DNA of 50,438 nt from a virus (taxonomy: Duplodnaviria; Caudoviricetes). Of this stretch, positions 10,675 through 47,854 are shown one piece after another (position 1 is the first letter of the stretch; the number at the start of each line of letters is the position of its first letter). The DNA is taken from positions 1 to 50,438 of the IMG/VR virus record IMGVR_UViG_3300024518_002307; one strand, 5' to 3'. The notes under the pieces are model-generated. The model made no database searches and had not been told where the DNA came from. It saw nothing but the letters and a program-made list of their open reading frames with translations. The position numbers and the translations under genes were made by a program.

Positions 10675-12201
10675 CTAATACCCAGTTACTTGACTAATGC
10701 CCCAATCCGTAGTACCGTACGCTTCTTCATATTCGTGATCGTACGCCTGTTCTTCTATTTCTTTGGTTGTCGAAACATCTACCATCTTGTTTATCATAAA
10801 AACCAACCAAGCAAACGCATCCGCTTGATCTAAGAATTTACTCTTGGGAAACTGTGATAGTTCCTCAAGAAGTTTTGGCCACCAAGAAGCATCTTGGTTG
10901 AATCTCACATCCCCTGCCTTAACCTTAGCTTGGGCAGGACGTGCTCTCTTCTCCTTATCCTTGATAGGAGGAAGTTCTTCTATGTTGATGTACGGATGTT
11001 TCTCATCCTTTCCCATCTCTTCTTTGATAATCGGACCCAAAGACTTTGCAATGTTCTCCGATTCAATTCCGAACAGCAAAGGCCCGTACCTGTACTGGAC
11101 GGCAAATAAAGCATTGATAATCTTACGGGAATCACGAGTTCGAAACCGTATGACATCTACGATGTCCAGCTTGCGCCCGTGAATAAGCTTACCTACGACA
11201 ATAACCGTGTAAGCTGCCTTCTCTTTCTCGGAAATTGCCAGATCCGCAGCAGCGTAGTAGTCGCCGTGGGCTTGAACATCTTCCTCCGGAATAGGCAAAA
11301 GATCGTCTACACGATAGAATGCATTTTCCAGATCTATGGGGTAGTTGAGATATTCCTGGGAGTACCCTTCCGGGTCGCCATCCTCTACAAACTCGTTTCG
11401 GATGTCTACCAATCTTTCTTTCGGGAACTTGTCGGGCCACAGCAACTTGGAGTAATCGGGATTGTGCGCTTGGTAGCGCACTGCCGTCCAAATCTTCTTT
11501 CTCGTGGACCAGAACTTAATGCCGTCTGTCTTGGTCTGTTCGTCAGTCCAAGAAGGCATGAATCTTTCAAGAAGGGAATCCATGTGCAGGATAGTTCCTA
11601 CTACACGAACATCGCAGGTATCTCCTCCGCATTGCATCAATGCTTTAAAGAACCACTTTCTAAACTTAGTTCGACGCTCTTCGCTTTCTACGATTTCGTC
11701 ATTCTCAAGATCGTCACCGACAATAAGATCCGGGCGCGTATTGCGCCACTTGATTCCCCTTAACTTCTGCTCACTGCCTTTGGCAATGATACGAAACCTC
11801 GGGATTTCCTTCTCATCTCCGCGTTTATGTAACTCAACTATTATTTGAGTTTCTTTGTCTTTTATTATTTTCTTGACCCCAAAGAGTTCTCGGAGGTCTT
11901 CGTTCTCTATAAGTTCTTTCTTGATGTCCCCTAAAAAGTCTACGCTTTGAGACTCCGTATCGGATATAAGTAGAACGTGCTTCTTTATTCGGAAGAGTAC
12001 ACAGGCAAGGATGAACACCAATGTGATTGCTGTGCTTTTCGCATGGCCGCGTGGCGCAGCGCATGCTACACGGGGACTCTCCGAGCAAGCCAGCTCCCAC
12101 AACTCATGGTGGAAGTCTGGTGTCTCTTTCGGATTATCGAAGTTCTTTAGTAGGAGACTACTGGAGAACCCGTGAATGGTGTCGGCATCTAGTCCTTGCA
12201 C
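10675..12201 (-). CDS. terL: Terminase large subunit
   Basis: Walker A APRGHAKS, Walker B IVGDDLE, coupling motif VGT, nuclease motifs DLA and DQADA. Confidence 0.95.
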   Translation of the reverse strand: MQGLDADTIHGFSSSLLLKNFDNPKETPDFHHELWELACSESPRVACAAPRGHAKSTAITLVFILACVLFRIKKHVLLISDTESQSVDFLGDIKKELIENEDLRELFGVKKIIKDKETQIIVELHKRGDEKEIPRFRIIAKGSEQKLRGIKWRNTRPDLIVGDDLENDEIVESEERRTKFRKWFFKALMQCGGDTCDVRVVGTILHMDSLLERFMPSWTDEQTKTDGIKFWSTRKKIWTAVRYQAHNPDYSKLLWPDKFPKERLVDIRNEFVEDGDPEGYSQEYLNYPIDLENAFYRVDDLLPIPEEDVQAHGDYYAAADLAISEKEKAAYTVIVVGKLIHGRKLDIVDVIRFRTRDSRKIINALFAVQYRYGPLLFGIESENIAKSLGPIIKEEMGKDEKHPYINIEELPPIKDKEKRARPAQAKVKAGDVRFNQDASWWPKLLEELSQFPKSKFLDQADAFAWLVFMINKMVDVSTTKEIEEQAYDHEYEEAYGTTDWGISQVTGY

Positions 12202-12247
12202 TCTTTCTCATTATTGTTATCTCCGCACTTTGTGCGGGATTCGTCTA

Positions 12248-12484
12248 TTATTTACTCCGCAAACGGGGCTTCTCTTCAAATGGTCGACTTATATGATAAA
12301 CAACTTCACAAGACTCGCACACCCAAATTTCAATTGGTGGATACATAAGCTTGATAAACCCTGTATCTGTTCCCGTTAAACCACAATTAGGACAATCTGC
12401 ATCGTTGTCATAATTATCGACATGCATAAAACGAGACATCATATCGTCGTATTTACGAAGTTTTTCTTTAACTTCTTCTTTCAT
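12248..12484 (-). CDS. Zn-ribbon protein (tandem paralog 2)
   Basis: CPNC...CESC; start re-assigned to ATG 12484, giving an ATGA overlap. Confidence 0.65.
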   Translation of the reverse strand: MKEEVKEKLRKYDDMMSRFMHVDNYDNDADCPNCGLTGTDTGFIKLMYPPIEIWVCESCEVVYHISRPFEEKPRLRSK

Positions 12485-12696
12485 AATTTCGATACAACTT
12501 TCCAGTACCTTACCTTGCAATCGTCGCAGATCCAAACCTCAAGGGGAGGAGTCGTCACTTTGGTAAACCCCGTACCCTCCCCCTCTTGGTGGCATCTCGG
12601 ACACTTCGGTCCGTTGCCTCGATTGCGTACCCTTACGTATTCCTTCAGCTTCTTGTCATATTTACGAAGCTTCCGTTTTTGCTCCGGAGTCAGCAT
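12481..12696 (-). CDS. Zn-ribbon protein (tandem paralog 1)
   Basis: CPRC...CDDC; start at MLTPEQ. Confidence 0.65.
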   Translation of the reverse strand: MLTPEQKRKLRKYDKKLKEYVRVRNRGNGPKCPRCHQEGEGTGFTKVTTPPLEVWICDDCKVRYWKVVSKL

Positions 12697-12862
12697 TATT
12701 GGGACTCCTTCCAAAAGTAGATTGGGCTACAACATAATCCCTGATACGTATCTCCAAATCCACCCATGCTCTGGGGGGAATAAGTCCTACTTCAGGATGA
12801 TCCATCTGCCATCGAAGTAGTAAACTCAACGCATCTTTCATATTTGTATATTCCTTATTCAA
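12662..12862 (-). CDS. Hypothetical protein
   Basis: 66-aa ORF coupled to the upstream gene. Confidence 0.5.
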   Translation of the reverse strand: MNKEYTNMKDALSLLLRWQMDHPEVGLIPPRAWVDLEIRIRDYVVAQSTFGRSPNNADSGAKTEAS

Positions 12863-13067
12863 AAGTCCATACCGCCCGTTCTAACTCTCGAATCTGCTGC
12901 TTGTGTTCCTTCAGTATTTCTTCCAACTCACCAATTCTGTAGTGTGCTACAGCAGCATTAGCAATGACGCTAACAACAAACACAATGATAGGCCAAGGTA
13001 CGACCATCCCGGCAATTCTAAATGATCCTGAGTTATTTCTTCCTTCTCGTTCATTTGAATCCGGCAC
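12855..13067 (-). CDS. Single-TM coiled-coil membrane protein
   Basis: TM WPIIVFVVSVIANAAVA followed by a coiled-coil; GTG start with AAGGA RBS avoids overlap with the tRNA. Confidence 0.6.
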   Translation of the reverse strand: MPDSNEREGRNNSGSFRIAGMVVPWPIIVFVVSVIANAAVAHYRIGELEEILKEHKQQIRELERAVWTFE

Positions 13068-13099
13068 ATTCCTTGGTCCTTTTGTTGTTATTCTAAATT

Positions 13100-13185
13100 T
13101 GGAGGAAGACAAAGGAGTCGAACCCTCAGCGGTTACGCTGGCCTAGTGTTCAAAACTAGTTGCTACCCTCGCAGCGCTATCTTCC
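13100..13185 (-). tRNA. tRNA-Ser(UGA), non-canonical (probable 8/4 fold)
   Basis: GGAAGATA/TGTCTTCC acceptor, CTAGT-TTTGAAC-ACTAG anticodon arm, long variable arm, TTCGACT T-loop, encoded CCA. Confidence 0.8.
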
Positions 13186-13378
13186 TTTTTAATAAAAAGC
13201 CGTTATACTAAGGATGTTATTCGTGCTCTACATTGTATCGCGTATAACGGGATCTAAACTATAGTCTAAAAGGCTCTCTATCCGAAAACCCTTTAGACTA
13301 CCCCCAAAGTAATCATCCATGCGCATCTGGGGTAGTCTCCTATCTCTTCTCTCAATCCATATACAAACTTAAACTTGT

Positions 13379-13610
13379 TTAAGTTTTCCCTACACACGGG
13401 GCCCTGTCATATCCTCTTCCGCTGCCAGTATTCCTAGTACCCCGAAGGTACGCACCGCCGACAGCTCGGCATGTATTCTCAAGCCGAACAATCGCTCGGC
13501 ATTTAAAGTTTGCAACACGTTTTAACATCTTCATTCCTTCCGAACTTCTGATAAGAGCATTTATATCAACTACTCTTTCTCCTCCGGAAGTTACTGTAAC
13601 ATATTTACTC
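13379..13610 (-). CDS. Hypothetical protein (start approximate)
   Basis: MSKYVTVTSGG portion of the ORF with a GGAG RBS. Confidence 0.4.
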
Positions 13611-13626
13611 ATCTCCACATAACACC

Positions 13627-14028
13627 TTAGTCCAACGTACGAATGCCTGCTGCTTTCGCACAATCCTTCGATGCTATCATTGACATCGCACGGAACTGCG
13701 AATCGTCAATCATTCCCGTCATAAGATGCTGCCACAGATCATCTGTTATCATCAACCAAGTGTGACAAACCTTAGTTGGTCCCTCATCTTCAAGAAGAAT
13801 CCACCAAGGCTTCATAACCTCTGCTTCTTCAAACGTTCGCTTTACTACTTCATTCTCGTCAGCAGTTGGACCGTACACCCTATGCTTCCACAAATCTTTC
13901 CCCTCAGGCGTAATAAGGTAGTGATCAAAAGTAATTAACGGTTGCGCTTTTGCTTCCGGCCCGAAGGCCAAGTACAGCAAACCTAGTACAACCAAGCCTG
14001 CAAAGATCGTTAATAGCTTATCTCTCAT
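13627..14028 (-). CDS. Secreted or membrane protein
   Basis: N-terminal hydrophobic segment with an AKA-Q cleavage-like site. Confidence 0.65.
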   Translation of the reverse strand: MRDKLLTIFAGLVVLGLLYLAFGPEAKAQPLITFDHYLITPEGKDLWKHRVYGPTADENEVVKRTFEEAEVMKPWWILLEDEGPTKVCHTWLMITDDLWQHLMTGMIDDSQFRAMSMIASKDCAKAAGIRTLD

Positions 14029-14095
14029 ACGATGTAACCTCTTAAATCAGCCTCGGTCATTTGTTGATTCGCGCCGAGGCTCGCGAGAAGTTAAA

Positions 14096-14181
14096 AAGTA
14101 CTTTGAACGGGAGTCGAACCCGCAACTCTACTCTCCCCGAAGGAAGGTTCTCCGTATACCTGTTCCGGCACCAAAGTACTT
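14096..14181 (-). ncRNA. tRNA-like RNA with the anticodon arm replaced by a UUCG hairpin
   Basis: Acceptor ACTTTGG/TCAAAGT, D-arm TGCCGGAACAGGTATACGG, T-arm GCGGG-TTCGACT-CCCGT, central CTTCC-TTCG-GGGAG; no CCA. Confidence 0.65.
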
Positions 14182-14182
14182 C

Positions 14183-14350
14183 CTAGTCAAACTCTATCTT
14201 GAACTCAATTATAGGAGCGTCTCCTTCGTTTGTCAAGCGAGCTTCGATTCCTTCCTTCAACTCAACTTCCGCTCCTTTACGGACATCCAGTTTGAAGTCA
14301 TTGCCGAAGGTTGCTAAACCTACAAATACTCCTATTATGATCCATTCCAT
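14183..14350 (-). CDS. Small membrane protein (55 aa)
   Basis: My translation: MEWIIIGVFVGLATFGNDFKLDV...; below the ORF-track cutoff. Confidence 0.5.
   Translation of the reverse strand: MEWIIIGVFVGLATFGNDFKLDVRKGAEVELKEGIEARLTNEGDAPIIEFKIEFD
14208..14236 (-). promoter_or_regulatory. Perfect sigma70 promoter
   Basis: TTGACA-17 nt-TATAAT, pointing at the tRNA-like RNA. Confidence 0.85.
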
Positions 14351-14358
14351 GCTTTAAA

Positions 14359-14430
14359 GTCATCTCCCAGGACTTGCACCCAGATCTTCAGTCCCAAAAA
14401 CTGACGTACTGCTTGTTGTACTAAAGATGC
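14359..14430 (-). tRNA. tRNA-Gln(UUG)-like, degenerate
   Basis: Complete cloverleaf with TCAGT-TTTTGGG-ACTGA anticodon arm; G1.A72 mismatch, no D-loop GG, TGCAAGT T-loop, no CCA. Confidence 0.6.
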
Positions 14431-14441
14431 ATAAATAAAGT

Positions 14442-14771
14442 TTAAAGGCCGTTGATATAAGACTTCATATCATTGGCACGAGCGTGTGCATTGTCGCCTA
14501 CGGCAACTGCATTCGCATCGAGGATGCCGATACCAAGTATAATCTTGTTGATTAGATCTACAAGGCCGTCCTGTTGATCCTGAGTAATACGATCCGTACA
14601 GTCGTCCAACCGACGATAAATCTCTTCGCACCCTTCGCCTATCGTAACACACGTAAGCATATTATCTTCGGCATAGGCTACTGCGTCATCGCAGACCAAC
14701 TTAGTTTCTGGTTTCAGAGCACACCCTGTAACCAACAGGGTTACAAAGAAGGCTATAAGTAAATTTTTCAT
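14442..14771 (-). CDS. Lipoprotein (o-spanin candidate)
   Basis: Signal peptide MKNLLIAFFVTLLVTG-C with a lipobox; several Cys. Confidence 0.65.
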   Translation of the reverse strand: MKNLLIAFFVTLLVTGCALKPETKLVCDDAVAYAEDNMLTCVTIGEGCEEIYRRLDDCTDRITQDQQDGLVDLINKIILGIGILDANAVAVGDNAHARANDMKSYINGL

Positions 14772-14776
14772 ATTAG

Positions 14777-15031
14777 TTAAAATCCGATTAGATCCTTGAT
14801 CCAATTTAGTATCATCTTGGCACCATCTGTGAGTTTATTCAACAGTATAAGAAATGCACCTACAAGTACGTTATAGATTGCAAAGCCACTATCCACAACA
14901 TCAAACAATGCATTGGATAGGTTCTGTGACAATTCCGTGACTAGGTCAAGGGGCAAACCAAAACCGAACAAAGATAATCCGCCCAATATAGTCACAAACC
15001 AACCTGTCAAAGCTACTCTAGTTAATTTCAT
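14777..15031 (-). CDS. Two-TM membrane protein (holin candidate)
   Basis: 84 aa, two hydrophobic helices and an amphipathic C-terminus. Confidence 0.55.
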   Translation of the reverse strand: MKLTRVALTGWFVTILGGLSLFGFGLPLDLVTELSQNLSNALFDVVDSGFAIYNVLVGAFLILLNKLTDGAKMILNWIKDLIGF

Positions 15032-15150
15032 AATAGATGTTTCCTACTTCTTAAACTTAATGTAATATCCGTAACGGCGCTTTTTCCAATACCAACCGAA
15101 ACCTAGAATTCTATTCTTAAACCAAAGGGAATTCCCTTTGCATACTATTC

Positions 15151-15420
15151 TCACGTTAGCGTGTCATTGTAAGTTACGTGGTAAGAAAACTTGCCCCTAT
15201 CATCAAGATCCCACGTCTTATACCATGTCCAATAGGGTTCAAACTCCAAGGGATAAGAAGGTACTTTTCTCTTACCAAATAACTCATGTAAACCCTCGTA
15301 CAACTCGCGTGCTGCTTCAAGGGGTAGTTCTACTGCTTCGTCTTTCGTCAGCTTAATCTTAATAGATTCTATCGTCATGCTAGGGTCCATGTTCCTGTTC
15401 GTTCTTTGGATGTGCGGCAT
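15151..15420 (-). CDS. Hypothetical protein
   Basis: ORF in an operon run; start uncertain. Confidence 0.5.
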   Translation of the reverse strand: MPHIQRTNRNMDPSMTIESIKIKLTKDEAVELPLEAARELYEGLHELFGKRKVPSYPLEFEPYWTWYKTWDLDDRGKFSYHVTYNDTLT

Positions 15421-15568
15421 CTTTTAAGATTGCCTCTATGATATTGATCACACTTACGTTTCTATTTATCTTGCGGATCTCGTTGTAGTCCTTCGAATTC
15501 TCTATCTTCTCCAAGTGACGACGCTTCACTCGCATCGTTGCAGCAAGCAGCTTATCTATGTTCTCCAT
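15380..15568 (-). CDS. Hypothetical protein
   Basis: 62-aa ORF abutting the upstream stop codon. Confidence 0.55.
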   Translation of the reverse strand: MENIDKLLAATMRVKRRHLEKIENSKDYNEIRKINRNVSVINIIEAILKDAAHPKNEQEHGP

Positions 15569-15868
15569 CTATAACGTTCCTTTAAAACTCAACAACGCTT
15601 GGGCAAGCAATGAACCTCGGAGATCTACTTCTTTCTCGTCGTGTTCGTCATTCCCTATTCCCATTGAACGCTGTACGGCATGCTCTAGCTCGTGACAAAA
15701 CGTCTGGAACTTCCGTGTCGGAGGTAACGTAGAACGTATAAGTATCTCGTTACGTTGTGCCACCCACGCCCCGTGTGCTCCTAGATCATCCAGAGTATCG
15801 TCTTTATCCTGCCTTACCGTTATGGTGTGACATACTATGTTAAACTTCTTTGGTATCTCGAACACCAT
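15569..15868 (-). CDS. Small HExxH zinc metallopeptidase-like protein
   Basis: TFCHELEH...DEKEVD; start re-assigned to ATG 15868, downstream of the promoter. Confidence 0.75.
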   Translation of the reverse strand: MVFEIPKKFNIVCHTITVRQDKDDTLDDLGAHGAWVAQRNEILIRSTLPPTRKFQTFCHELEHAVQRSMGIGNDEHDEKEVDLRGSLLAQALLSFKGTL

Positions 15869-15881
15869 TAACTCTTTTCCT

Positions 15882-15910
15882 CTTATACCACACTCAGATC
15901 TAAATGTCAA
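15882..15910 (-). promoter_or_regulatory. sigma70 promoter with extended -10
   Basis: TTGACA-17 nt-TATAAG, with TG ahead of the -10. Confidence 0.75.
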
Positions 15911-15949
15911 GCGTTATCATAGATAACGTCGTACTTCGATAGAAGTACT

Positions 15950-16066
15950 TTAGGCATTTTTCTTCTTGTACATCTTTGGTTTAGGAATAGTGGGTGCTTT
16001 AGGTTTAGGGGCAGCGGGAGCTGCCTTCTCATACGCTCTATGTGCCCTACTCTTCTTCTTTCCCAT
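15950..16066 (-). CDS. Small basic Lys/Pro-rich peptide
   Basis: My translation: MGKKKSRAHRAYEKAAPAAPKPKAPTIPKPKMYKKKNA. Confidence 0.5.
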   Translation of the reverse strand: MGKKKSRAHRAYEKAAPAAPKPKAPTIPKPKMYKKKNA

Positions 16067-16068
16067 GC

Positions 16069-16290
16069 CTACTTCTTCTCTCTTCGCTTGAGCATTTCCT
16101 CAAGAGTACCGCTATCCTTTGACGAAGATGCGTATTTCTTATTCGCGGCAGCTTTCGCCTTAGAGCCTGTCGAATAAGAGCCTCCCGTACTTTCGCTTTT
16201 TGCGTGATCTCGGACATTATAGGAATCCCGTAACGGACGCATCCGTACTTCCGGTTTGTCAGATTCGAGCTTATTTTTAGTTGTTGGCAT
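16069..16290 (-). CDS. Small basic protein
   Basis: 73-aa Lys/Ser-rich ORF with an AAGGA RBS. Confidence 0.6.
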   Translation of the reverse strand: MPTTKNKLESDKPEVRMRPLRDSYNVRDHAKSESTGGSYSTGSKAKAAANKKYASSSKDSGTLEEMLKRREKK

Positions 16291-16349
16291 TCTAATATAC
16301 TTCCTTTTCGTAGTCGTTTACTTCTTAGCGTGTATTAACAAAACAGCGA

Positions 16350-18917
16350 CTATGGCAAGTACCACCTACCATATAGTGCGCCGGGTTCCTTGGGATTTTG
16401 CTCTATAATGAGCTGTTCCCGGAGCAGCATAGCTGCGGTAAAAATTAGCGACGAATTGGTTTCGTGTATGGTGAATTCACACTGTCCTGTGTTTAATCGG
16501 GGATGTATCATCCACCTACGCCAAAACGGGGGTGTACGCTGAGAAGCGTGGCTAACAAAATCAACCGTACCCCCGAGCGGGTTTGGAGACTCCCAGACGT
16601 CGTTACGAAAGGCCGAATAAATCGGACCACCTGTAATTCCAAAAAGAACAATGCCGGGAACTGGATCATCGATATCATCGATGTCGGAAGGCTTGTGCTG
16701 AATCTCTACAGGATAGGCGTACCCAATCCCTGTTGCCCACGATAAACCCATCGGATTCGCACCCAAGACATAATTAGCATTCGAAATCGCAGCATCACGG
16801 TACTTCGCATCTCCGGTCATCTCGTACGCAATGAAGAGCGAACGGTTGTAGTTCGTTAACACGGTATTACCCCAAGCCGCAAAGAAATCCTGCCGTCTAG
16901 GCCACGTCATGGCATAGGGTGCGTCATCTACATGTGCAACAAGCGCATCTGCGTCATTGATAAACCAAGTCGTCCATGTCGCAGCTAAAGAAGGTAACTC
17001 TTCGGCTGCTTCTATGATGCTGAAGAAAATCCACGGAGACCAGTCCTTATGCGTAAACTTCCACTCGAATGGAAAATGAGATGTGGACTCCAACTCTAGA
17101 ACACTTGGGGCATCGGTTAAGTATGACGTATCCTTGGTCAACAGGTAGAGCCGCAGCTTGGCGTGCATCAGGTACGGCGTGATGTATTCGTCCAATTCTG
17201 TCCACTCGATTGTATATGGAGTACCGGAACCTCGATTCTCGGCCGCGTGAATGATTGTCGCTCCCAGGGAGTTGGCAGGATTGTTCCCGAACGCGTAGGC
17301 GTCTTCTGCCGAGGCTCGATACAGTGCCGCGTCTGCAGCGTCGTAGGGGGCGACTAGCTGCGCGTACTGAGCTGCAGCAGCGGCAAATATAAGTGAAGTC
17401 CATCGAGTGCGCTGTGCGAACGCATAGTCAACTCTACCATTACCAGTTTCCGCATCGATGTCTGGATGCGTCCACGTCTCCAACATCCCTGAGACGCCAC
17501 CGTCTGCCTCCTGACTGAGCCGCCACAACTCCAATCCGTGGCGAACCTCATTCAAGATGTCGGGAATCCCATCTCCCGACTCTGGAATGTTGAGCTGCAT
17601 GTCCTGCAAACTTGGATTAAGGGCGAAGGCATGTAACAAATCGAAGACGATCGTATAATGGCCCTGGTTGGAGTCCCAATCAGCAGCATCGTGCCATCCT
17701 CCAGAAGCCTCAGGGGTGCTCCTCGTATAGTCGATGGAGGCACCGATGACATCGAATCTGTCGTAGCCGGGAGGGTTACCCGAATGCGGAGGAAACTGAA
17801 CGTGCTCTGATTCGTAGAACAAAGGCCCCCTCACCGCTTTACGACGTGGCCAATTCGTTCGCTCCTCCTCAATGGGCACGCCTGCCCGTTGCAGGTAGAG
17901 CCCCCGTGCCATCGTATGAAAAACAGGTGCATATGCCGACGCATCATGCCGAAACGGCCACGACCTTCCGATCCCCGGAACGCTGATAAAAAAGACACCC
18001 TCCTGGGTCATCGAAGTAAAGTCTGCGACGTAGACATCCTCGCCATACATCATATCAGTGTTTGTCGGCGGCTCAAACTGAGGATTGGCTTCAAGTAGTG
18101 ATATGTCACCGGTGAACACCACCTCGTGATTCGTCGCGTCTATCACCTCGAACGTGGTGGCGTGCGAAAGATCCAAGGGTCCAAACTGGTACAAGTATGC
18201 ACCCAGATACGCACGCTTCTGCCCAGCATCGGGCAAATATCCGACCTGGTTTACCTTGATGGCGCGCGACACAGTGTACAGACGGTCGAATAGAAAAGTG
18301 ACGCTCTTGTCTTCGTTCAAGGCAATCGTGTACGTCGCCCCGTCTTGCATTGGGGTTGGAAGTTCCAAATAGGCGTAGACGTTATAGTTCGCGGTAAATG
18401 TCCCACCATATTTCCTGTCATCACCTTCTGAAACATAGAGACGGTCTGCTAAAGTCGGCGCCACTGGCGCCACATAATTGTCGTCATCGACGCTCGTGAC
18501 CGTGTAGTGGCTGGTCTGACTCAACAAAAGCTCACCGACATCGAGACGAGCCTGTGCGATGTGCTCATCCCGCGTCGTCCACCTGCGGTTGTAGGCAGCC
18601 CAATTTGGGCTGGAGGTCTCCCGAGTACTGAGCCACATTTCGATATCCTGCACAAACAATCCATCAGAGGCGTTATCGATTTCGGCAACAAGTTCATCGA
18701 GCTTGTTCACAACAACGATGACCCAGCGCTCGTCTAAGACGAGCAGTTGCTCAACGCCGTTGAGAGTCGGCTCATGGAAATGAGGGACAGGGAACGCTAT
18801 TGGTGGGGGCGTAGGTGGTTGTACTGGTGGACTGATCACAATTAAGGAACAGGCATAAGAAGCAACAACAAGCAGAACAGATACAACTATATACTTGATT
18901 AAATCTCTACATCTCAT
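16350..18917 (-). CDS. Glycoside hydrolase family 9 (endoglucanase-like) with Ig-like domain and N-terminal membrane anchor
   Basis: IKVNQVGYLP (CelD-type Ig domain), GGWHDAAD, IPDILNEVRHGL, YVLGANPMGLSWATG, CEFTI. Confidence 0.9.
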   Translation of the reverse strand: MRCRDLIKYIVVSVLLVVASYACSLIVISPPVQPPTPPPIAFPVPHFHEPTLNGVEQLLVLDERWVIVVVNKLDELVAEIDNASDGLFVQDIEMWLSTRETSSPNWAAYNRRWTTRDEHIAQARLDVGELLLSQTSHYTVTSVDDDNYVAPVAPTLADRLYVSEGDDRKYGGTFTANYNVYAYLELPTPMQDGATYTIALNEDKSVTFLFDRLYTVSRAIKVNQVGYLPDAGQKRAYLGAYLYQFGPLDLSHATTFEVIDATNHEVVFTGDISLLEANPQFEPPTNTDMMYGEDVYVADFTSMTQEGVFFISVPGIGRSWPFRHDASAYAPVFHTMARGLYLQRAGVPIEEERTNWPRRKAVRGPLFYESEHVQFPPHSGNPPGYDRFDVIGASIDYTRSTPEASGGWHDAADWDSNQGHYTIVFDLLHAFALNPSLQDMQLNIPESGDGIPDILNEVRHGLELWRLSQEADGGVSGMLETWTHPDIDAETGNGRVDYAFAQRTRWTSLIFAAAAAQYAQLVAPYDAADAALYRASAEDAYAFGNNPANSLGATIIHAAENRGSGTPYTIEWTELDEYITPYLMHAKLRLYLLTKDTSYLTDAPSVLELESTSHFPFEWKFTHKDWSPWIFFSIIEAAEELPSLAATWTTWFINDADALVAHVDDAPYAMTWPRRQDFFAAWGNTVLTNYNRSLFIAYEMTGDAKYRDAAISNANYVLGANPMGLSWATGIGYAYPVEIQHKPSDIDDIDDPVPGIVLFGITGGPIYSAFRNDVWESPNPLGGTVDFVSHASQRTPPFWRRWMIHPRLNTGQCEFTIHETNSSLIFTAAMLLREQLIIEQNPKEPGALYGRWYLP

Positions 18918-18919
18918 CT

Positions 18920-19528
18920 CTAGTTTCCTTCATCATTCACAACCCCAATTCCATCTACAACCGTTGCCTCGCCTACAATAATAGGTTTCTTAGCCTTGAT
19001 ATCCTTTGACAGTTCCTTGAACGCATCCGTGAGTTCCTTCATCTTGGTCGGAGTATCCGTCTTACCGCTTATGCTCGTCGGATCTCCTCTGATCAGATTA
19101 CGCTTATCATACAGTATTCCGAGTGTTACTGTCAACTCCCTTAGCGACAGCGGCTTGTGAGCAAACCCATCCTCGGTACTCTCATCCGGCATGGGTATGC
19201 CGTCTACGTAGATAATCTCTCCGAGAGCGATTCTATCGCTTACCTTCTCGATAGCTGTGTGAATGATGTTTGTCATCACACCATCCAGCTCTTCCTGCTT
19301 CTCTCGTCGGCAAGCCTCTGCTGCCTCGTCCCACCAATCCGATTGCTTCCAGCAACGGATTTTATCAGCGGATACGCCACAAAGCCTCTCTGCCTGGAAG
19401 GATGTACCCGTTAGTACAAATGCCATCACTGCGGCTATCTTCTGCTCTGGAGTGTACGTACTCCGGGGATGGTGAAGAGAGTCCAAATCCATGTTCTTGA
19501 GCAGATTACTCTGCTTCTTCTTAGGCAT
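18920..19528 (-). CDS. terS: Terminase small subunit
   Basis: N-terminal HTH (YTPEQK...IRCWKQSDWW) and GILYDKRNLIRGDPTSI. Confidence 0.8.
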   Translation of the reverse strand: MPKKKQSNLLKNMDLDSLHHPRSTYTPEQKIAAVMAFVLTGTSFQAERLCGVSADKIRCWKQSDWWDEAAEACRREKQEELDGVMTNIIHTAIEKVSDRIALGEIIYVDGIPMPDESTEDGFAHKPLSLRELTVTLGILYDKRNLIRGDPTSISGKTDTPTKMKELTDAFKELSKDIKAKKPIIVGEATVVDGIGVVNDEGN

Positions 19529-19682
19529 TCGTAGCTTCTGCCCTTTCTTTTAGTCGGGTCAGAATCTGGAGTACAACCTTTGTTGGTATTTCGTCAGTTC
19601 CGCTTTCGCTCACTGCCTTAATCGCTGCTTCTATTGCCTGCTCAGCACTTAGATTAGACCACACACCTTCTCTTATCTTCAT
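19521..19682 (-). CDS. Small hypothetical protein, first gene of the late arm
   Basis: My translation: MKIREGVWSNLSAEQAIEAAIKA...; GAGGA RBS; overlaps the TerS start. Confidence 0.55.
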   Translation of the reverse strand: MKIREGVWSNLSAEQAIEAAIKAVSESGTDEIPTKVVLQILTRLKERAEATNA

Positions 19683-19898
19683 TAGGCTTTTTCCTCTTTC
19701 AATCGGGTACTCTTCTTAAAAACTCTATGTTCTACTGTACCTCCAACACTTATGACCCGTGTGTTGTCGGTACCGAGTACCTTAACAGATTTTACCATAA
19801 AAGTAAAATCACTCTGTTCGAATACTCCTTCGGTCGGTTTCGGCGTTGCCTACTCCCTCAGGAGTATGTACATAGCCACTCTTAAGAGCAGACAGTAC

Positions 19899-23633: not shown

Positions 23634-24338
23634 TTACAAGCCTAAAGCTCCAAGAACTTTTATTAGCTTTTCGAAATCATTCCAATTACCACCCATATTC
23701 TCAATTTGCTCGCGTGTAAACGCTCGCCATTTTTTTGCGGTATATTGCTTACATCCTATCGATACATACTTATCCCCTACAATTACAGTATAAAAAGGAC
23801 CAGTGATAACAATGGGGGATTTTTTGCAGTTTTCATCCCCAAACACCTCAGCATTCCCAAACACCCGAGCATCCCCAGACACCCGAGCATCCCCATACAC
23901 CCGAGCATTCCCATACACCTCAGCATCCCCAAACACCCAAGCATTCCCAAACACCCGAGCATTCCCATACACCTCAGCATCCCCAAACACCTGAGCATCC
24001 CCAAACACCTCAGCATCCCCAAACACCTGAGCATTCCCAAACACCCGAGCATCCCCATACACCCGAGCATCCCCAAACACCTGAGCATTCCCAAACACCC
24101 GAGCATCCCCATACACCCGAGCATCCCCATACACCCGAGCATTCCCATACACCTCAGCATCCCCAAACACCCAAGCATTCCCACTTTGATTTAAATTGTT
24201 TTCACTTTCGACAAAACCTCCAGTCTCTCCTTTTTTCACTGTACCAAAAGAAATCAAAGCACGAATTCTGTAAAGCGTTTTTGTACCAAAGACAATTTTG
24301 GTTTCACTCGTAAGTTCGTATTTATTAGGTGTATTCAT
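23634..24338 (-). CDS. Hexapeptide-repeat (left-handed beta-helix-like) protein
   Basis: KYELT...LYRIRAL...[10 protein letters not shown] head followed by about 19 G[ND]A[RQEW]V[FYS] repeats. Confidence 0.85.
23834..24181. repeat. 18-bp coding tandem repeat
   Basis: Variants of gcat(c/t)ccc(a/aa)acacc(cga/tca/tga) with 18-nt period. Confidence 0.9.
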
Positions 24339-46595: not shown

Positions 46596-47387
46596 TTACC
46601 CACAATAACCTAAGTAAGTAAGAGTAGCCGTGACCGTTGCTGCAGCCGAAGTCCAAGTTACATCAAACTGCTGACTACTATTCAAAGGTACTATGATAAA
46701 ACCTATATGACTGGTGTCATCGGTTCCCGCATCAGCACTGGTTACAAACTCAATTTGGGAGGATTGTGCCTCGGACCACGAAGTTCCTGTTGGTCTGAAT
46801 GATACCTGATTAAGAAAGTTTCCCGCTTCGTTGGTATTTCCTATTTCAACATTGAGCATAACCGCAGTTGCGGTAGAACTAATACTGTCTAGCGCGGTCC
46901 ATATATTAGTTGCTCCACTTCCTGTTTTACCTACTGATTCAAAAGTACTCTCGGTAACGTCAGTAGCAATATCCAATTGCCCGACAGCAACAGGTGCCGT
47001 TGTACCTGCATATATATGGATACTGGGTGCCCAAGGATTAAGCAATCTAAAATTGGTACCATTGTAAAGAAATAAAGCCGTTTGTCCGTCTACTAACTCT
47101 CCCCCTACAAGCGCATCTCCCGCGACAGTCTGTACTGCTGTTGCAGCAAGCCCGTCGATGGCAAGAGTAACCGCACCTGTATTCGTACCTCCTATCTGAT
47201 ACTCGTATACGTGATTCGTTTCGTACGCTCCCTCTGTGGGATCATCCGACACTGTAACCGTATTGGTTCCACTTGTAGTGGCGGGTACGGATGCGAACTT
47301 GCCTATGTTGAGGTTATTGATATTGGCATCCATCTCCCCGTGAGTAAGGGCAGATCCTTTACCTGCTCGTGTTACAACTGTTACCAT
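46596..47387 (-). CDS. Tail fibre/appendage-like protein
   Basis: TRAGKGSALTHGEMDAN, NTGAVTLAIDG, YNGTNF. Confidence 0.65.
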   Translation of the reverse strand: MVTVVTRAGKGSALTHGEMDANINNLNIGKFASVPATTSGTNTVTVSDDPTEGAYETNHVYEYQIGGTNTGAVTLAIDGLAATAVQTVAGDALVGGELVDGQTALFLYNGTNFRLLNPWAPSIHIYAGTTAPVAVGQLDIATDVTESTFESVGKTGSGATNIWTALDSISSTATAVMLNVEIGNTNEAGNFLNQVSFRPTGTSWSEAQSSQIEFVTSADAGTDDTSHIGFIIVPLNSSQQFDVTWTSAAATVTATLTYLGYCG

Positions 47388-47400
47388 TCTCTGTTATCTC

Positions 47401-47799
47401 TTAATTTACTGATCTGCTTACTTCATACCAACTGGTGTTATCAAATACTAGTTGAAGTACTGTATCATCTGCTGATGTAAATGCAGCAGACAGATCAATT
47501 GTATTTGTCGTGTGTCCTGCTGTATCTGTAATTGTTACATTTCCATCTACGAATATGAGAGTAAGGAATTGTCCGTTATCCCCTTCGGTGATAGTAGCTA
47601 TGGTATTACCCCCACCATCTCCCGTTATTGTCATTAGATTAGAAGCGGCTTTAAAAGTTGTAGCGCTTGCTGCTAAGGTGTGTGCTGTATTTTCGTTTTG
47701 TGAATTTAGCCATTCACCTAAGTCGCCTAACCATCTACGCCAGCGCTCCGACCATGCCTCATCGTCGGAAGGTGCTCCACCTGGAAACTTAAGTGCCAT
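47401..47799 (-). CDS. Tail-associated protein
   Basis: WRRWL N-terminal motif and beta-rich C-terminus; follows the nozzle gene. Confidence 0.6.
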   Translation of the reverse strand: MALKFPGGAPSDDEAWSERWRRWLGDLGEWLNSQNENTAHTLAASATTFKAASNLMTITGDGGGNTIATITEGDNGQFLTLIFVDGNVTITDTAGHTTNTIDLSAAFTSADDTVLQLVFDNTSWYEVSRSVN

Positions 47800-47854
47800 T
47801 AAAAGAAGACCCCGTCTCTTTTAAAAATATGGGACGTAGTTTCCATATTAAAAG

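What the first reader, a model, noticed from the sequence alone, without database searches (positions are those of the whole stretch)
16350..18917. Intact membrane-anchored GH9 (cellulase family) enzyme coupled to terS
Seen: an 855-aa ORF starting 2 nt after the terS stop. It has an N-terminal hydrophobic anchor, a Pro-rich linker, an extra domain of about 170 aa, an Ig-like domain and a catalytic domain with DAAD (canonical DAGD) and the C-terminal Glu. The body looks more GC-rich than its surroundings (spot count 38/60 at 17281 versus 17/60 at 15001), while the anchor-coding part is AT-rich. Inference: a captured bacterial enzyme, exported late in infection to cut beta-glucan matrix or sheath for progeny release, to feed the host, or to act in lysis. 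It takes up about 5% of the genome.
Basis: partly seen in the sequence, partly recalled or inferred. Interest (0 to 1): 0.78.

Follow-up and report, generated by a model that had tools for sequence, protein, structure and literature searches.

The report
Phage-borne GH9 glycan hydrolase, exported
A complete marine phage genome carries an intact bacterial-type family-9 glycoside hydrolase with an export signal, and its closest bacterial relatives sit in slime (exopolysaccharide) synthesis gene clusters, so it most likely cuts the host's own slime layer rather than plant cellulose.

Summary
Window 16350..18917 (-) is an intact 855-aa ORF starting 2 nt after the preceding gene. It has a hydrophobic N-terminus, a Pro-rich linker, a ~170-aa extra domain, a CelD_N Ig-like domain and a GH9 catalytic domain. 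DAAD is the norm for this subfamily; both Asp and Glu814 are invariant in 85 of 85 relatives.

The gene is not an assembly chimera: contigs from three seawater runs bridge both junctions at flat depth.

It is a lineage-specific cargo gene. A homologue of the upstream gene lies just before TerL in 47 of 81 related phage loci (median gap 512 nt), none has GH9, and here the gap is 6.7 kb.

The phage copy nests (SH-aLRT 97) among two gammaproteobacterial MAG copies and unnamed metagenome proteins. Both named neighbours lie in exosortase/glycosyltransferase exopolysaccharide loci.

Best reading (about 0.5): a Sec-exported, probably tethered, EPS-backbone hydrolase made late in infection to clear host matrix.

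Phage-like IMG/VR contigs captured the same subfamily independently. Viral GH9 genes are already reported, so this is a new member of a known kind. Substrate, anchoring, expression and host are untested.

The parts
16350..18917 (-). Intact 855-aa GH9 gene (stop codon included)
   Evidence: ORF list. Pfam PF00759 and PF02927. AF2 model with pLDDT 84.8 and pTM 0.86. Foldseek match to GH9 structures, E 4e-27.
18831..18917 (-). Residues 1-29: basic N-terminus plus hydrophobic segment (export signal, lipoprotein signal or signal anchor), with Cys23
   Evidence: Uncharged hydrophobic run over residues 9-33, 25 aa long against a family median of 16. A loose lipobox-type pattern ends at C23; the strict pattern is not met. 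Helix 2-24 in the model. GC of residues 1-49 is 0.429.
18783..18830 (-). Residues 30-45: Pro-rich linker (9 Pro in 16)
   Evidence: Sequence and count. pLDDT is below 50 for residues 24-43.
18273..18770 (-). Residues ~50-215: subfamily-specific N-terminal domain (helical part plus beta-sandwich part), no solved homologue
   Evidence: Folded alone it gives pLDDT 93.2. Foldseek against PDB gives 0 matches at E <= 0.001, best TM 0.34-0.35. No Pfam hit. The full-length domain is found almost only at the front of ~800-1240-aa proteins or in fragments: 32 representative clusters at E <= 1e-30.
17967..18269 (-). Residues 217-317: CelD_N Ig-like domain
   Evidence: Pfam PF02927, E 2.7e-13, 50.9 bits against a cutoff of 24.6.
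16353..17933 (-). Residues 329-855: GH9 (alpha/alpha)6 catalytic domain
   Evidence: Pfam PF00759 over residues 329-765. PDB profile hit to 3x17, E 8.9e-55. Foldseek TM (target-normalised) 0.74-0.80 to 3x17, 1clc, 6dht and 3gzk.
17679..17690 (-). Asp410-Ala-Ala-Asp413 (DAAD; the canonical GH9 motif is DAGD)
   Evidence: Aligned to DAGD of 3x17. D410 and D413 are invariant in 85 of 85 rows; position 412 is A in 78 and G in 7.
16476..16478 (-). Glu814, the presumed catalytic acid
   Evidence: Invariant in 85 of 85 rows. The preceding residue is N in 30, S in 31 and C in 20, giving an NE[FY][TS][VI]-type motif. It was not mapped residue by residue onto a solved GH9: sequence alignments stop near residue 770.
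18926..18930 (-). AAGGA Shine-Dalgarno-like motif, 9-13 nt before the GH9 ATG, inside the upstream gene
   Evidence: Sequence read.
18920..19528 (-). 202-aa upstream gene; small terminase subunit by position only
   Evidence: No Pfam, PHROG or NCBIfam hit. The Atlas gives viral hypothetical-protein clusters, some neighbouring clusters with HTH_23/HTH_Tnp_1. A homologue lies on the same strand upstream of TerL in 47 of 81 related phage loci, median gap 512 nt.
12202..18919 (-). Expanded variable interval between the upstream gene and TerL. It holds GH9, small ORFs (an HExxH protein, a lipobox protein, TM-rich ORFs) and three tRNA genes
   Evidence: Interval length against 5-3416 nt in relatives. 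tRNAs. Small ORFs. Cargo in relatives.
10675..12201 (-). Large terminase subunit, the lower boundary of the interval
   Evidence: phrog_38, E 1.1e-75.

Best explanation
The gene encodes a catalytically competent GH9 endo-beta-1,4-glycanase. It belongs to an uncharacterised ~860-aa subfamily built as: signal, subfamily-specific N-domain, Ig-like domain, GH9 domain.

This ~50-kb marine phage took it from a bacterium, probably a gammaproteobacterium, into the variable interval between its small-terminase-like gene and TerL. In bacteria the subfamily often lies inside exopolysaccharide or capsule biosynthesis loci, where an exported hydrolase would trim or clear the polymer.

In the phage, the gene is read with the late packaging and structural genes. 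The N-terminal signal sends the protein through Sec. It probably stays tethered to the envelope, by a lipid on Cys23 or by an uncleaved helix, on a Pro-rich stalk. There it cleaves the beta-1,4-linked backbone of the host's own exopolysaccharide. This would free progeny from capsule, floc or biofilm matrix and reduce their trapping on it.

Shown: gene integrity, GH9 membership, conservation of catalytic residues, a real phage location, bacterial origin, and the EPS-locus context of relatives.

Inferred: substrate, export and tethering, timing, benefit and host.
For: Identity and integrity:
- Pfam GH9 at 103 bits and CelD_N.
- Foldseek E 4e-27 to GH9 structures.
- D410, D413 and E814 are invariant in 85 of 85 rows.
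- The phage copy keeps 104 of the 111 columns that are invariant in 35 homologues, and 208 of 225 columns conserved at 90% or more (0.924). The 11 lowest leave-one-out values printed for the other rows were 0.886-0.96. This argues for purifying selection.

Real phage gene:
- The record is rated 100% complete.
- It carries TerL, portal, major head protein, DNA polymerase and RNR.
- Contigs X2 16068-19120, X3 15455-19305, and X4 14462-18188 plus 18168-19507 bridge both junctions. Depth is flat: 6.2 against 6-7, 27.4 against 28, and 14.8 against 14.5-15.8. X4 is not flagged as a possible source of the record.
- The identical protein is on 3 contigs.

Capture:
- The phage copy sits in a clade of 13 rows (SH-aLRT 97) with the two Pseudomonadota MAG copies.
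- Its terminal branch is 0.7, against 0.12-0.41 for its clade mates.
- GH9 is absent from 81 related phage loci. In 47 of these the whole interval between the upstream gene and TerL is present (5-3416 nt, against 6.7 kb here).

EPS link:
- In L006, GH9 follows a Tyr autokinase, a WecB/TagA glycosyltransferase, exosortase XrtD (590 bits), a PrsT-like TPR protein, a PEP-CTERM-associated ATPase and ManC.
- In L005 it lies among GT4 and GT2 glycosyltransferases and a phosphodiesterase.
- EPS-type neighbours (ManC, GT4, GT2, Wza, Wzx, pyruvyl transferase, phosphodiesterase) occur in 29 of 80 bacterial loci, with two or more kinds in 23 of 80.
- GH9 enzymes that cut an EPS backbone are known (xanthanases). 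6fhj matches the model at E 1.5e-18 (PMC10881899 passages).

Export and timing:
- Hydrophobic N-terminus and Pro-rich disordered linker.
- Same strand as the packaging genes, an SD-like motif, a 2-nt gap, and no terminator-like site at the junctions.
- Neighbouring small ORFs look like envelope or lysis proteins, as does the cargo of this interval in related phages.
Against: - No activity, substrate, expression or localisation data exist. No RNA run held the stretch.
- The host is unknown, so it is not known whether it makes a matching polymer.
- Among the 25 closest bacterial loci, only 7 show EPS-type neighbours. The one complete cultured genome (L026, Poriferisphaera) has GNAT and LacI-type neighbours instead.
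- Many loci are short, and the neighbour clusters were defined only by recurrence.
- The subfamily was not found in 99 of 100 other sampled genomes of the order of the closest MAG: 1 of 100 gave a weak 32% match.
- The phage copy has lost 7 columns that are otherwise invariant in the 35 homologues: H342L, D715N, G264H, G330A, M725L and a 2-residue deletion near 834.
- Glu814 was not mapped onto a solved GH9 residue by residue.
- Tethering is uncertain. The strict lipobox is not met, and residues 20-22 (S-Y-A) would also fit signal peptidase I cleavage (the cleavage rule is recalled).
Confidence: 0.5

Rival explanations
1. Receptor-destroying or superinfection-exclusion enzyme. The exported GH9 strips the infected cell's EPS or capsule, which is the phage's primary receptor. 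Further phages then do not adsorb to an already infected or lysed cell, and progeny are not wasted on debris.
For: This rests on the same facts as the best explanation: an export signal and relatives in EPS loci. The enzyme is not in the tail module and has no PHROG tail match, so it acts from inside the infected cell rather than from the virion.
Against: Nothing shows that EPS is the receptor. A late-operon position would give exclusion only late in infection. This reading cannot be told apart from matrix clearing with these data.
Confidence: 0.15
2. Classical carbon-turnover auxiliary gene. A secreted cellulase or beta-glucanase degrades environmental glucans (algal cellulose, xyloglucan-like polymers) and feeds the host during infection.
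For: The best solved matches are endoglucanases and a xyloglucanase: 3x17, CelD, BoGH9A and AaCel9A. Viral GH9 genes have been read this way. One rumen viral GH9 was cloned and digested CMC (PMC10465536, passages). Mariana Trench sediment viral contigs also carried GH9 (PMC8725595, passages).
Against: - Recurrent neighbours of the subfamily are biosynthetic: glycosyltransferases, ManC, Wza, Wzx and exosortase. No uptake or catabolic genes stood out among the neighbour clusters annotated.
- No Pfam carbohydrate-binding module was found.
- A tethered enzyme made at the end of infection would return little sugar to a cell about to lyse.
- Identity to characterised cellulases is only 18-24%.
Confidence: 0.15
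3. Lysis enzyme. The exported GH9 takes the part of, or assists, an endolysin by cutting a beta-1,4-linked wall or sheath polymer.
For: - No lysozyme, amidase or other endolysin family was recognised among the 42 window ORFs scanned with Pfam and/or PHROGs.
- The gene lies next to small membrane and lipobox ORFs, one with a weak Rz-like spanin hit at E 0.003.
- The same interval in related phages holds TM and lipobox ORFs.
- Signal-bearing lysis enzymes exist (recalled).
Against: No GH9 is known to cleave peptidoglycan (recalled from CAZy-type knowledge). The bacterial homologues are housekeeping members of EPS loci. Not all ORFs were scanned, and an HExxH protein (15569..15910) could be the muralytic enzyme.
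Confidence: 0.08
4. Artefact or decaying passenger: a chimeric assembly, or a recently acquired gene with no function in the phage.
For: It is the GC-richest 2.6-kb block of the genome. It has a long terminal branch. It has lost 7 of 111 otherwise invariant columns.
Against: Both junctions are bridged by contigs from three runs at flat depth. The frame is intact over 855 codons, and catalytic residues and 92% of highly conserved columns are kept. The second cluster member differs by only 2 residues.
Confidence: 0.04

Closest known systems
Ig-like-domain GH9 endoglucanases: metagenomic 3x17, C. thermocellum CelD (1clc), A. acidocaldarius Cel9A (3gzk), B. ovatus BoGH9A xyloglucanase (6dht)
   Same: CelD_N Ig-like domain followed by a GH9 (alpha/alpha)6 barrel. 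DAxD with both Asp present. Foldseek E 4e-27 to 2.7e-24, TM (target-normalised) 0.74-0.80. Profile E 8.9e-55 to 3x17.
   Different: Identity is only 20-24%. This protein has an extra ~170-aa N-domain with no solved homologue. It has DAAD instead of DAGD. Its C-terminal region is diverged and has insertions, so sequence alignments stop near residue 770. Its relatives sit in EPS loci rather than in cellulolytic systems.
GH9 endo-xanthanases (Paenibacillus PspXan9, PDB 6fhj/6fhn; Microbacterium MiXen)
   Same: GH9 enzymes that cut the beta-1,4-glucan backbone of a bacterial exopolysaccharide bearing mannose-containing, pyruvylated side chains (PMC10881899 passages). 6fhj matches the model at E 1.5e-18. 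The subfamily's neighbours include ManC and pyruvyl transferases.
   Different: 17% identity and a different modular make-up. The xanthanases are catabolic enzymes of xanthan-eating bacteria, not members of biosynthetic loci. No activity is known for the present subfamily.
Virus-encoded GH9 'cellulase' auxiliary genes from metagenomes (rumen virome database; Mariana Trench sediment viruses)
   Same: A host-derived GH9 gene flanked by viral genes. The rumen one was cloned and digested CMC (PMC10465536 passages). GH9 is listed among high-confidence viral AMGs (PMC8725595 passages).
   Different: Those were on incomplete contigs, and the rumen gene is 79.5% identical to a Ruminococcus GH9. Here the genome is rated complete and comes from seawater. 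The gene belongs to an EPS-locus subfamily, carries an export signal, and sits in the interval between the upstream gene and TerL. I did not compare sequences with those genes because they were not available to me.
Hydrolases and lyases encoded inside EPS loci (BcsZ, PslG, PelA, AlgL: recalled; Pantoea WceF: PMC7949094, search listing only)
   Same: An exported glycan-cleaving enzyme encoded among the synthesis and export genes of the polymer it acts on. This is the proposed role of the bacterial homologues.
   Different: Those enzymes belong to other families or folds (GH8, GH39, GH166, PL5, tailspike-like; recalled). No GH9 member of such loci turned up in my searches.
Phage tailspike or tail-fibre EPS/capsule depolymerases
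   Same: A phage-encoded enzyme that degrades host surface polysaccharide.
   Different: Those are virion parts, typically beta-helix trimers (recalled). This protein has an (alpha/alpha)6 fold, an N-terminal export signal, no PHROG tail match, and lies outside the tail gene block.

Membership tests
Glycoside hydrolase family 9 | Match to the family profile above the curated threshold | tested here: met
   PF00759: 103 bits against a cutoff of 27.7, E 3.1e-29, residues 329-765, profile positions 1-414 of 444.
Glycoside hydrolase family 9 | (alpha/alpha)6 barrel superposable on solved GH9 enzymes | tested here: met
   AF2 model with pLDDT 84.8. Foldseek gives 63 PDB matches at E <= 0.001, and the top ~45 are GH9. 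Best is 3x17_A, E 4.2e-27, TM 0.77.
Glycoside hydrolase family 9 | Two catalytic-base Asp in the DAGD-type motif | tested here: met
   GGWHDAADWD aligns to GGWHDAGDYG of 3x17. D410 and D413 are present in 85 of 85 rows. The Gly is replaced by Ala in 78 of 85.
Glycoside hydrolase family 9 | Catalytic-acid Glu near the C-terminus (NE-type motif) | tested here: inconclusive
   E814 is invariant in 85 of 85 rows, preceded by N in 30. No residue-level alignment to a characterised GH9 Glu was obtained: alignments end near residue 770, and the C-terminal fragment search failed.
Glycoside hydrolase family 9 | Inverting hydrolysis of beta-1,4-glycosidic bonds | not testable with these tools
   This needs an enzyme assay.
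GH9 with N-terminal Ig-like domain (CelD type) | CelD_N domain directly before the catalytic domain | tested here: met
   PF02927: 50.9 bits against a cutoff of 24.6, residues 217-317.
Virus-encoded auxiliary glycoside hydrolase | Cell-derived enzyme gene with viral genes on both sides of one contiguous viral genome | tested here: met
   TerL, portal and major head protein lie downstream; DNA polymerase, primase, helicase and RNR are elsewhere on the record. Completeness is 100. Junctions are bridged in 3 runs. It nests in a bacterial clade.
Phage tailspike-type depolymerase | Virion-attached protein of the tail module, beta-helix fold | tested here: not met
   (alpha/alpha)6 fold, 0 PHROG hits and an N-terminal hydrophobic signal. 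The gene lies between the upstream gene and TerL, away from the tail-like ORFs at 46596-49426.
EPS-locus hydrolase (role of the bacterial homologues) | Encoded within a polysaccharide synthesis and export locus | tested here: inconclusive
   Met for the two closest named homologues, L005 and L006. EPS-type neighbours occur in 29 of 80 bacterial loci (7 of the 25 close ones). Not met in L026. The phage copy itself has no such neighbours.
Bacterial lipoprotein | Lipobox ending in Cys after a short hydrophobic region | tested here: inconclusive
   A loose pattern (recalled, PROSITE-type) matches at C23. The strict [LVI][ASTVI][GAS]C does not. 9 of 121 family members match the loose pattern and 4 the strict one.
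Small terminase subunit (the upstream gene) | Profile match to a terS family | tested here: not met
   0 hits in Pfam (E <= 0.1), PHROGs (E <= 0.01) and NCBIfam.
Small terminase subunit (the upstream gene) | Small gene directly upstream of terL on the same strand | tested here: met
   Homologues are in that position in 47 of 81 related loci, median gap 512 nt. In the window itself the gap is 6.7 kb.

The most novel reading that the evidence does not exclude
This ~860-aa GH9 subfamily, with its own N-terminal domain, would be the dedicated backbone-cleaving hydrolase of a widespread, uncharacterised class of exosortase- or Wzx/Wzy-type exopolysaccharides in PVC bacteria and some Gammaproteobacteria.

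Phages have captured it repeatedly as a non-virion matrix-clearing enzyme. This marine ~50-kb phage carries it with a new export and tether signal. Phage-like IMG/VR contigs (one of 245 kb) carry it without any signal.

That would be a mode of phage depolymerase use distinct from tailspikes. It would also mean that some viral 'cellulase' auxiliary genes counted in carbon-cycling surveys are really anti-matrix weapons.
Probability: 0.3. Interest if true: 0.7.

Novelty: new member of a known kind. Interest (0 to 1): 0.5.

Why it matters
Viral glycoside hydrolases found in metagenomes are usually counted as carbon-degrading auxiliary genes. Here the genomic homes of the bacterial relatives point instead to the host's own slime layer as the target.

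If that is right, it changes how such genes should be tallied in ocean carbon budgets. It would add an exported, non-virion depolymerase to the phage toolkit. It would also flag an uncharacterised GH9 subfamily, with a fold-novel N-domain, as a candidate EPS-specific enzyme that could be useful for dispersing biofilms or flocs.

The complete genome and the clean insertion site make the case directly testable.

Tried and rejected
- **Chimeric assembly:** rejected.
- **GC as proof of recent capture:** rejected as weak. Per-gene z is only 1.9. The gene is GC-richer than its locus in L005, L006, L007, L002 and L003 too.
- **No RNA holder listed** for the stretch, so nothing can be said on expression.
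- **Run X5** covers the gene only in pieces. Nothing was concluded from that.
- **Single-protein locus searches:** GH9 and the upstream gene found nothing in viral contigs. TerL alone found one locus. Alignments were needed.
- **tblastn and megablast** against 50,697 phage records found no match. Records of the window's own genome may be left out there.
- **Homologue search for the upstream gene** gave only 3 proteins.
- **Mapping Glu814 by sequence:** a phmmer search with the last 63 residues against PDB gave only a chance zinc-finger hit.
- **N-domain fold search:** no PDB match at E <= 0.001.
- **Promoter-like sites:** not above shuffles (20 against 21.3), so the 11/12 match at 19135..19106 is not used as evidence.
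- **AU test on the 65-row tree:** did not finish in three calls. It was run on a 27-row subset with LG+G4 instead. The group tested was named after seeing the tree.
- **First tree script:** failed on a row-name slip and was rerun.
- **The genome search with a locus id as centre:** It was redone through handles.
- **Literature:** the Pontiella paper mentions GH9 only in a CAZyme count. Searches found no paper describing a GH9 in an EPS-synthesis locus or a signal-bearing phage GH9.


Full report
**1. What is there**

The ORF at window 16350..18917 on the minus strand is 855 aa long and intact. The preceding 202-aa ORF (18920..19528, minus strand) ends in TAG at 18922-18920. Two bases then separate it from the ATG at 18917. 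An AAGGA motif lies 9-13 nt upstream of that ATG.

Pfam finds Glyco_hydro_9 at residues 329-765 (103 bits against a cutoff of 27.7). It finds the CelD_N Ig-like domain at residues 217-317 (50.9 bits against 24.6).

An AlphaFold2 model built on a 36-sequence alignment has mean pLDDT 84.8 and pTM 0.86. It shows:
- a helix at residues 2-24;
- a disordered stretch at residues 24-43, which contains the 9-Pro-in-16 linker;
- a well-defined extra domain at residues ~50-215;
- the Ig-like domain;
- the (alpha/alpha)6 barrel.

Foldseek against PDB returns GH9 enzymes as the top ~45 hits. Examples are 3x17_A (E 4.2e-27, TM 0.77), CelD, BoGH9A, AaCel9A and CbhA. The GH9 xanthanase 6fhj matches at E 1.5e-18.

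**2. Catalytic residues**

GGWHDAADWD (residues 406-415) aligns with GGWHDAGDYG of 3x17. I examined 85 family rows: the window copy plus 84 ORFs from fetched loci.
- D410 and D413 are invariant in all 85.
- Position 412 is Ala in 78 and Gly in 7.
- Glu814 is invariant in all 85. It is preceded by Asn in 30, Ser in 31 and Cys in 20.

So DAAD is the norm for this subfamily, not a lesion of the phage copy.

Glu814 is the presumed catalytic acid, judged by motif and invariance. I could not align it residue by residue to a solved GH9, because sequence alignments end near residue 770.

The phage protein keeps 104 of the 111 columns that are invariant in 35 homologues. It keeps 208 of the 225 columns conserved at 90% or more (0.924). 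The 11 lowest leave-one-out values printed for the other rows were 0.886-0.96.

**3. It is a real phage gene**

The window is a whole IMG/VR virus record of 50,438 bp, rated 100% complete. It encodes:
- TerL (phrog_38, E 1e-75), portal and major head protein, and head-closure, DNA-ejection and tail-like proteins on the minus strand;
- primase, DnaB-like helicase, DNA polymerase, exonucleases and ribonucleotide reductase on the plus strand.

The stretch 15500-19800 is held by five seawater-metagenome runs at 0.65 or more of the sampled words. Their contigs bridge both ends of the gene:
- X2 16068-19120, with 0 differences;
- X3 15455-19305;
- X4 14462-18188 plus 18168-19507.

Depth is flat across the junctions, and X4 is not flagged as a possible source of the record. 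The identical protein is on record from 3 contigs, the longest 57,913 bp. A second cluster member differs by 2 residues.

Chimerism is therefore excluded as far as contigs can show it.

**4. Where it sits**

The upstream gene has no Pfam, PHROG or NCBIfam match. The protein Atlas places it among viral hypothetical-protein clusters, with HTH families in neighbouring clusters.

I fetched 81 IMG/VR loci around TerL relatives (37-54% identity) and found the following.
- A homologue of the upstream gene lies on the same strand just before TerL in 47 of the 81. The median gap is 512 nt, with a range of 5-3416 nt. That position is what supports calling it a small terminase subunit.
- In the window the same interval is 6.7 kb, the largest seen.
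- None of the 81 loci has a GH9 match.

In relatives the interval carries varied small cargo, including HNH-like proteins and TM-plus-lipobox ORFs.

In the window, besides GH9, it carries:
- three tRNA genes;
- an HExxH protein at 15569..15910 (phrog_1233 and phrog_87);
- a lipobox protein at 14442..14804 with a weak Rz-like spanin hit (E 0.003);
- TM-rich small ORFs.

GH9 is thus a lineage-specific insertion in a plastic region that tends to hold envelope-acting genes.

**5. Where it came from**

A word-indexed search found 357 relatives at E <= 0.001 among 8000 scored candidates. The best 120 are mostly ~850-880 aa (a minority about 1,000-1,260 aa), 43-60% identical, and most align over nearly the full length.

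The best 80 come mostly from Verrucomicrobiota, Lentisphaerota, Planctomycetota, Kiritimatiellia, Chlamydiota (Waddliaceae) and Hydrogenedentota. The two best hits, at 60% identity, are in MAGs labelled Gammaproteobacteria and Sedimenticola.

In a 65-row tree (IQ-TREE quick search, LG+C20+F+G4 by PMSF, SH-aLRT support only), the phage copy falls in a clade of 13 rows with support 97. That clade holds the two MAG copies and 10 unnamed metagenome proteins. The phage terminal branch is 0.7, against 0.12-0.41 for its clade mates. The clade is nested in a PVC-dominated family.

Only GH9 is shared between the window and loci L002-L007, so those are not related phages.

Within the order of the closest MAG, 1 of 100 other sampled genomes gave a match, and only a weak one at 32% identity. 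The subfamily is therefore sporadic there.

One TerL relative (52% identity) is named from a Zhongshania record. That is a weak pointer to marine Gammaproteobacteria as hosts.

**6. The GC argument**

The gene is the GC-richest 2.6-kb block of the genome, at 0.521 against 0.459. Per gene it is not a clear outlier: z is 1.9 for GC and 1.6 for GC3, and four smaller ORFs reach 0.519 or more.

The homologous gene is also GC-richer than its surroundings in all five other loci checked. Composition may therefore reflect the protein itself. I do not rest the capture claim on GC.

**7. What the relatives do for a living**

In L006 the gene order is: Tyr autokinase, WecB/TagA glycosyltransferase, exosortase XrtD (TIGR04152, 590 bits), PrsT-like TPR protein, PEP-CTERM-associated ATPase, GDP-mannose pyrophosphorylase, GH9, arylsulfotransferase-like protein. 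In L005, GH9 lies between a phosphodiesterase-family protein, GT4 and GT2 glycosyltransferases and a giant Ig/cadherin-repeat protein.

I clustered all neighbours of the 83 fetched loci L002-L084 (80 of them bacterial). The recurrent clusters, by number of loci, are:
- ManC: 20
- phosphodiesterase: 18
- GT4: 17 and 11 (two clusters)
- GT2: 14
- Wza-type exporter: 13
- Wzx-type flippase: 9
- pyruvyl transferase: 7

At least one of these occurs in 29 of 80 bacterial loci. That breaks down as 7 of the 25 close relatives and 22 of the 55 distant ones. Two or more kinds occur in 23 of 80.

This count is a lower bound, because many loci are short. It is not universal either: the complete Poriferisphaera genome has GNAT and LacI-type neighbours instead.

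GH9 enzymes that cut the beta-1,4-glucan backbone of a mannose-bearing, pyruvylated EPS (xanthan) are known (PMC10881899, passages).

My inference is that the subfamily is an EPS-processing hydrolase, comparable in role to BcsZ, PslG or WceF in other pathways (the first two recalled; WceF from a search listing). I found no paper describing such a GH9.

**8. The N-terminus**

Bacterial relatives mostly start with a short signal peptide followed by a GLGG-type motif.

The phage copy has a basic start and an uncharged hydrophobic run of 25 residues, against a family median of 16. Cys23 ends a loose lipobox-type pattern but not the strict one. The Pro-rich stretch follows. The patterns, and the signal peptidase -3/-1 rule that residues 20-22 (S-Y-A) would also satisfy, are recalled.

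Export is therefore likely. Whether the protein ends up as a lipoprotein, a signal-anchored protein or a soluble protein is open. I put tethering at roughly two in three.

**9. The extra domain**

Folded alone with 34 sequences, residues 44-216 give pLDDT 93.2. They have no PDB match at E <= 0.001.

An exhaustive profile search of 1.84 billion representatives found 335 hits at E <= 0.001. Only 32 reach E <= 1e-30, and those are ~800-1240-aa proteins or fragments. Weaker hits match only the beta-sandwich half, in proteins of many lengths.

The domain's function is unknown. A substrate-binding role is a guess.

**10. Other phages**

A pattern scan of IMG/VR found relatives on three contigs.

L002 (245 kb) and L003 (46 kb, two tandem copies) have phage-like neighbours: Volactin, a RecA-like ATPase, DnaB-like helicase and a 5'-3' exonuclease. 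Their copies start directly at the N-domain, with no signal. They group with a Hydrogenedentota MAG copy and a metagenome chromosome copy at support 99.

On a 27-row subset (LG+G4), forcing all phage copies into one clade costs 193.7 log-likelihood units, with p-AU 2.9e-10. The group was named after seeing the tree. This indicates at least two independent captures.

No GH9 relative was found by tblastn in 50,697 deposited phage genomes.

Viral GH9 genes have been reported from the rumen, where one was cloned and was CMC-active, and from trench sediments (passages only). The kind is therefore known.

**11. Verdict**

Of the three proposed roles, matrix or capsule cleavage is the best supported. 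It rests on the genomic company of the relatives, not on any assay. Host feeding and lysis are weaker. No endolysin family was recognised among the 42 window ORFs scanned, which keeps the lysis idea alive at low odds.

Supplementary files of papers were not available.

Noticed in passing
window 13100-14430 (-): Three tRNA genes (Ser-TGA, Arg-TCG, Gln-TTG) lie inside the same variable interval as GH9.
   Followed up: no
window 15569-15910 (-): A 113-aa protein with an HELEH (HExxH) motif. It hits phrog_1233 (E 6e-9) and the 'metallo-protease' phrog_87 (E 1e-4). It could be the unrecognised muralytic or regulatory enzyme.
   Followed up: partly
window 12855-15031 (-): A run of small membrane-type ORFs. 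14777..15031 is TM-rich. 14442..14804 has an LLVTGC lipobox and a weak Rz-like spanin hit (E 0.003). 14183..14350 and 12855..13112 each have one hydrophobic segment. This is a possible lysis cassette.
   Followed up: partly
whole window: No lysozyme, amidase or other endolysin family was recognised among the 42 ORFs scanned with Pfam and/or PHROGs. Several small ORFs were not scanned.
   Followed up: partly
window 19522-19561: Contigs of two runs (X4, X5) skip 38 nt just upstream of the start of the 202-aa gene. This is a strain variant in the intergenic or start region (table 5).
   Followed up: no
window 14048-14092: Contigs of three runs (X2, X3, X5) end or diverge at 14048 and 14092, next to tRNA-Arg. 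The same loose-end sequence appears in each, which suggests an alternative form of this spot in the population (table 7).
   Followed up: no
window 23634-24338 (-): A 234-aa protein with YdcK beta-solenoid repeats (Pfam E 1e-23) and strong hits to unannotated PHROGs (phrog_7964, E 4e-73).
   Followed up: no
L003 9944-14959; L015 6967-12541; L024 6172-12562: Tandem paralogous copies of the GH9 subfamily occur in one phage-like contig and in two bacterial loci.
   Followed up: no
L002 7969-9045; L003 8732-9871: A Volactin-family actin-like gene (Pfam E 4e-52 and 4e-60) lies directly upstream of GH9 in two phage-like IMG/VR contigs.
   Followed up: no
L016, L018, L024: The subfamily is present in Chlamydiota MAGs (Waddliaceae and others), in L016 next to glycosyltransferase, ManC and Wzx-type genes. 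That is unexpected for obligate intracellular bacteria, if the bins are clean.
   Followed up: no
L006 12793-14178: An arylsulfotransferase-family gene lies directly after GH9 in the exosortase locus. This hints at a sulfated polymer.
   Followed up: no
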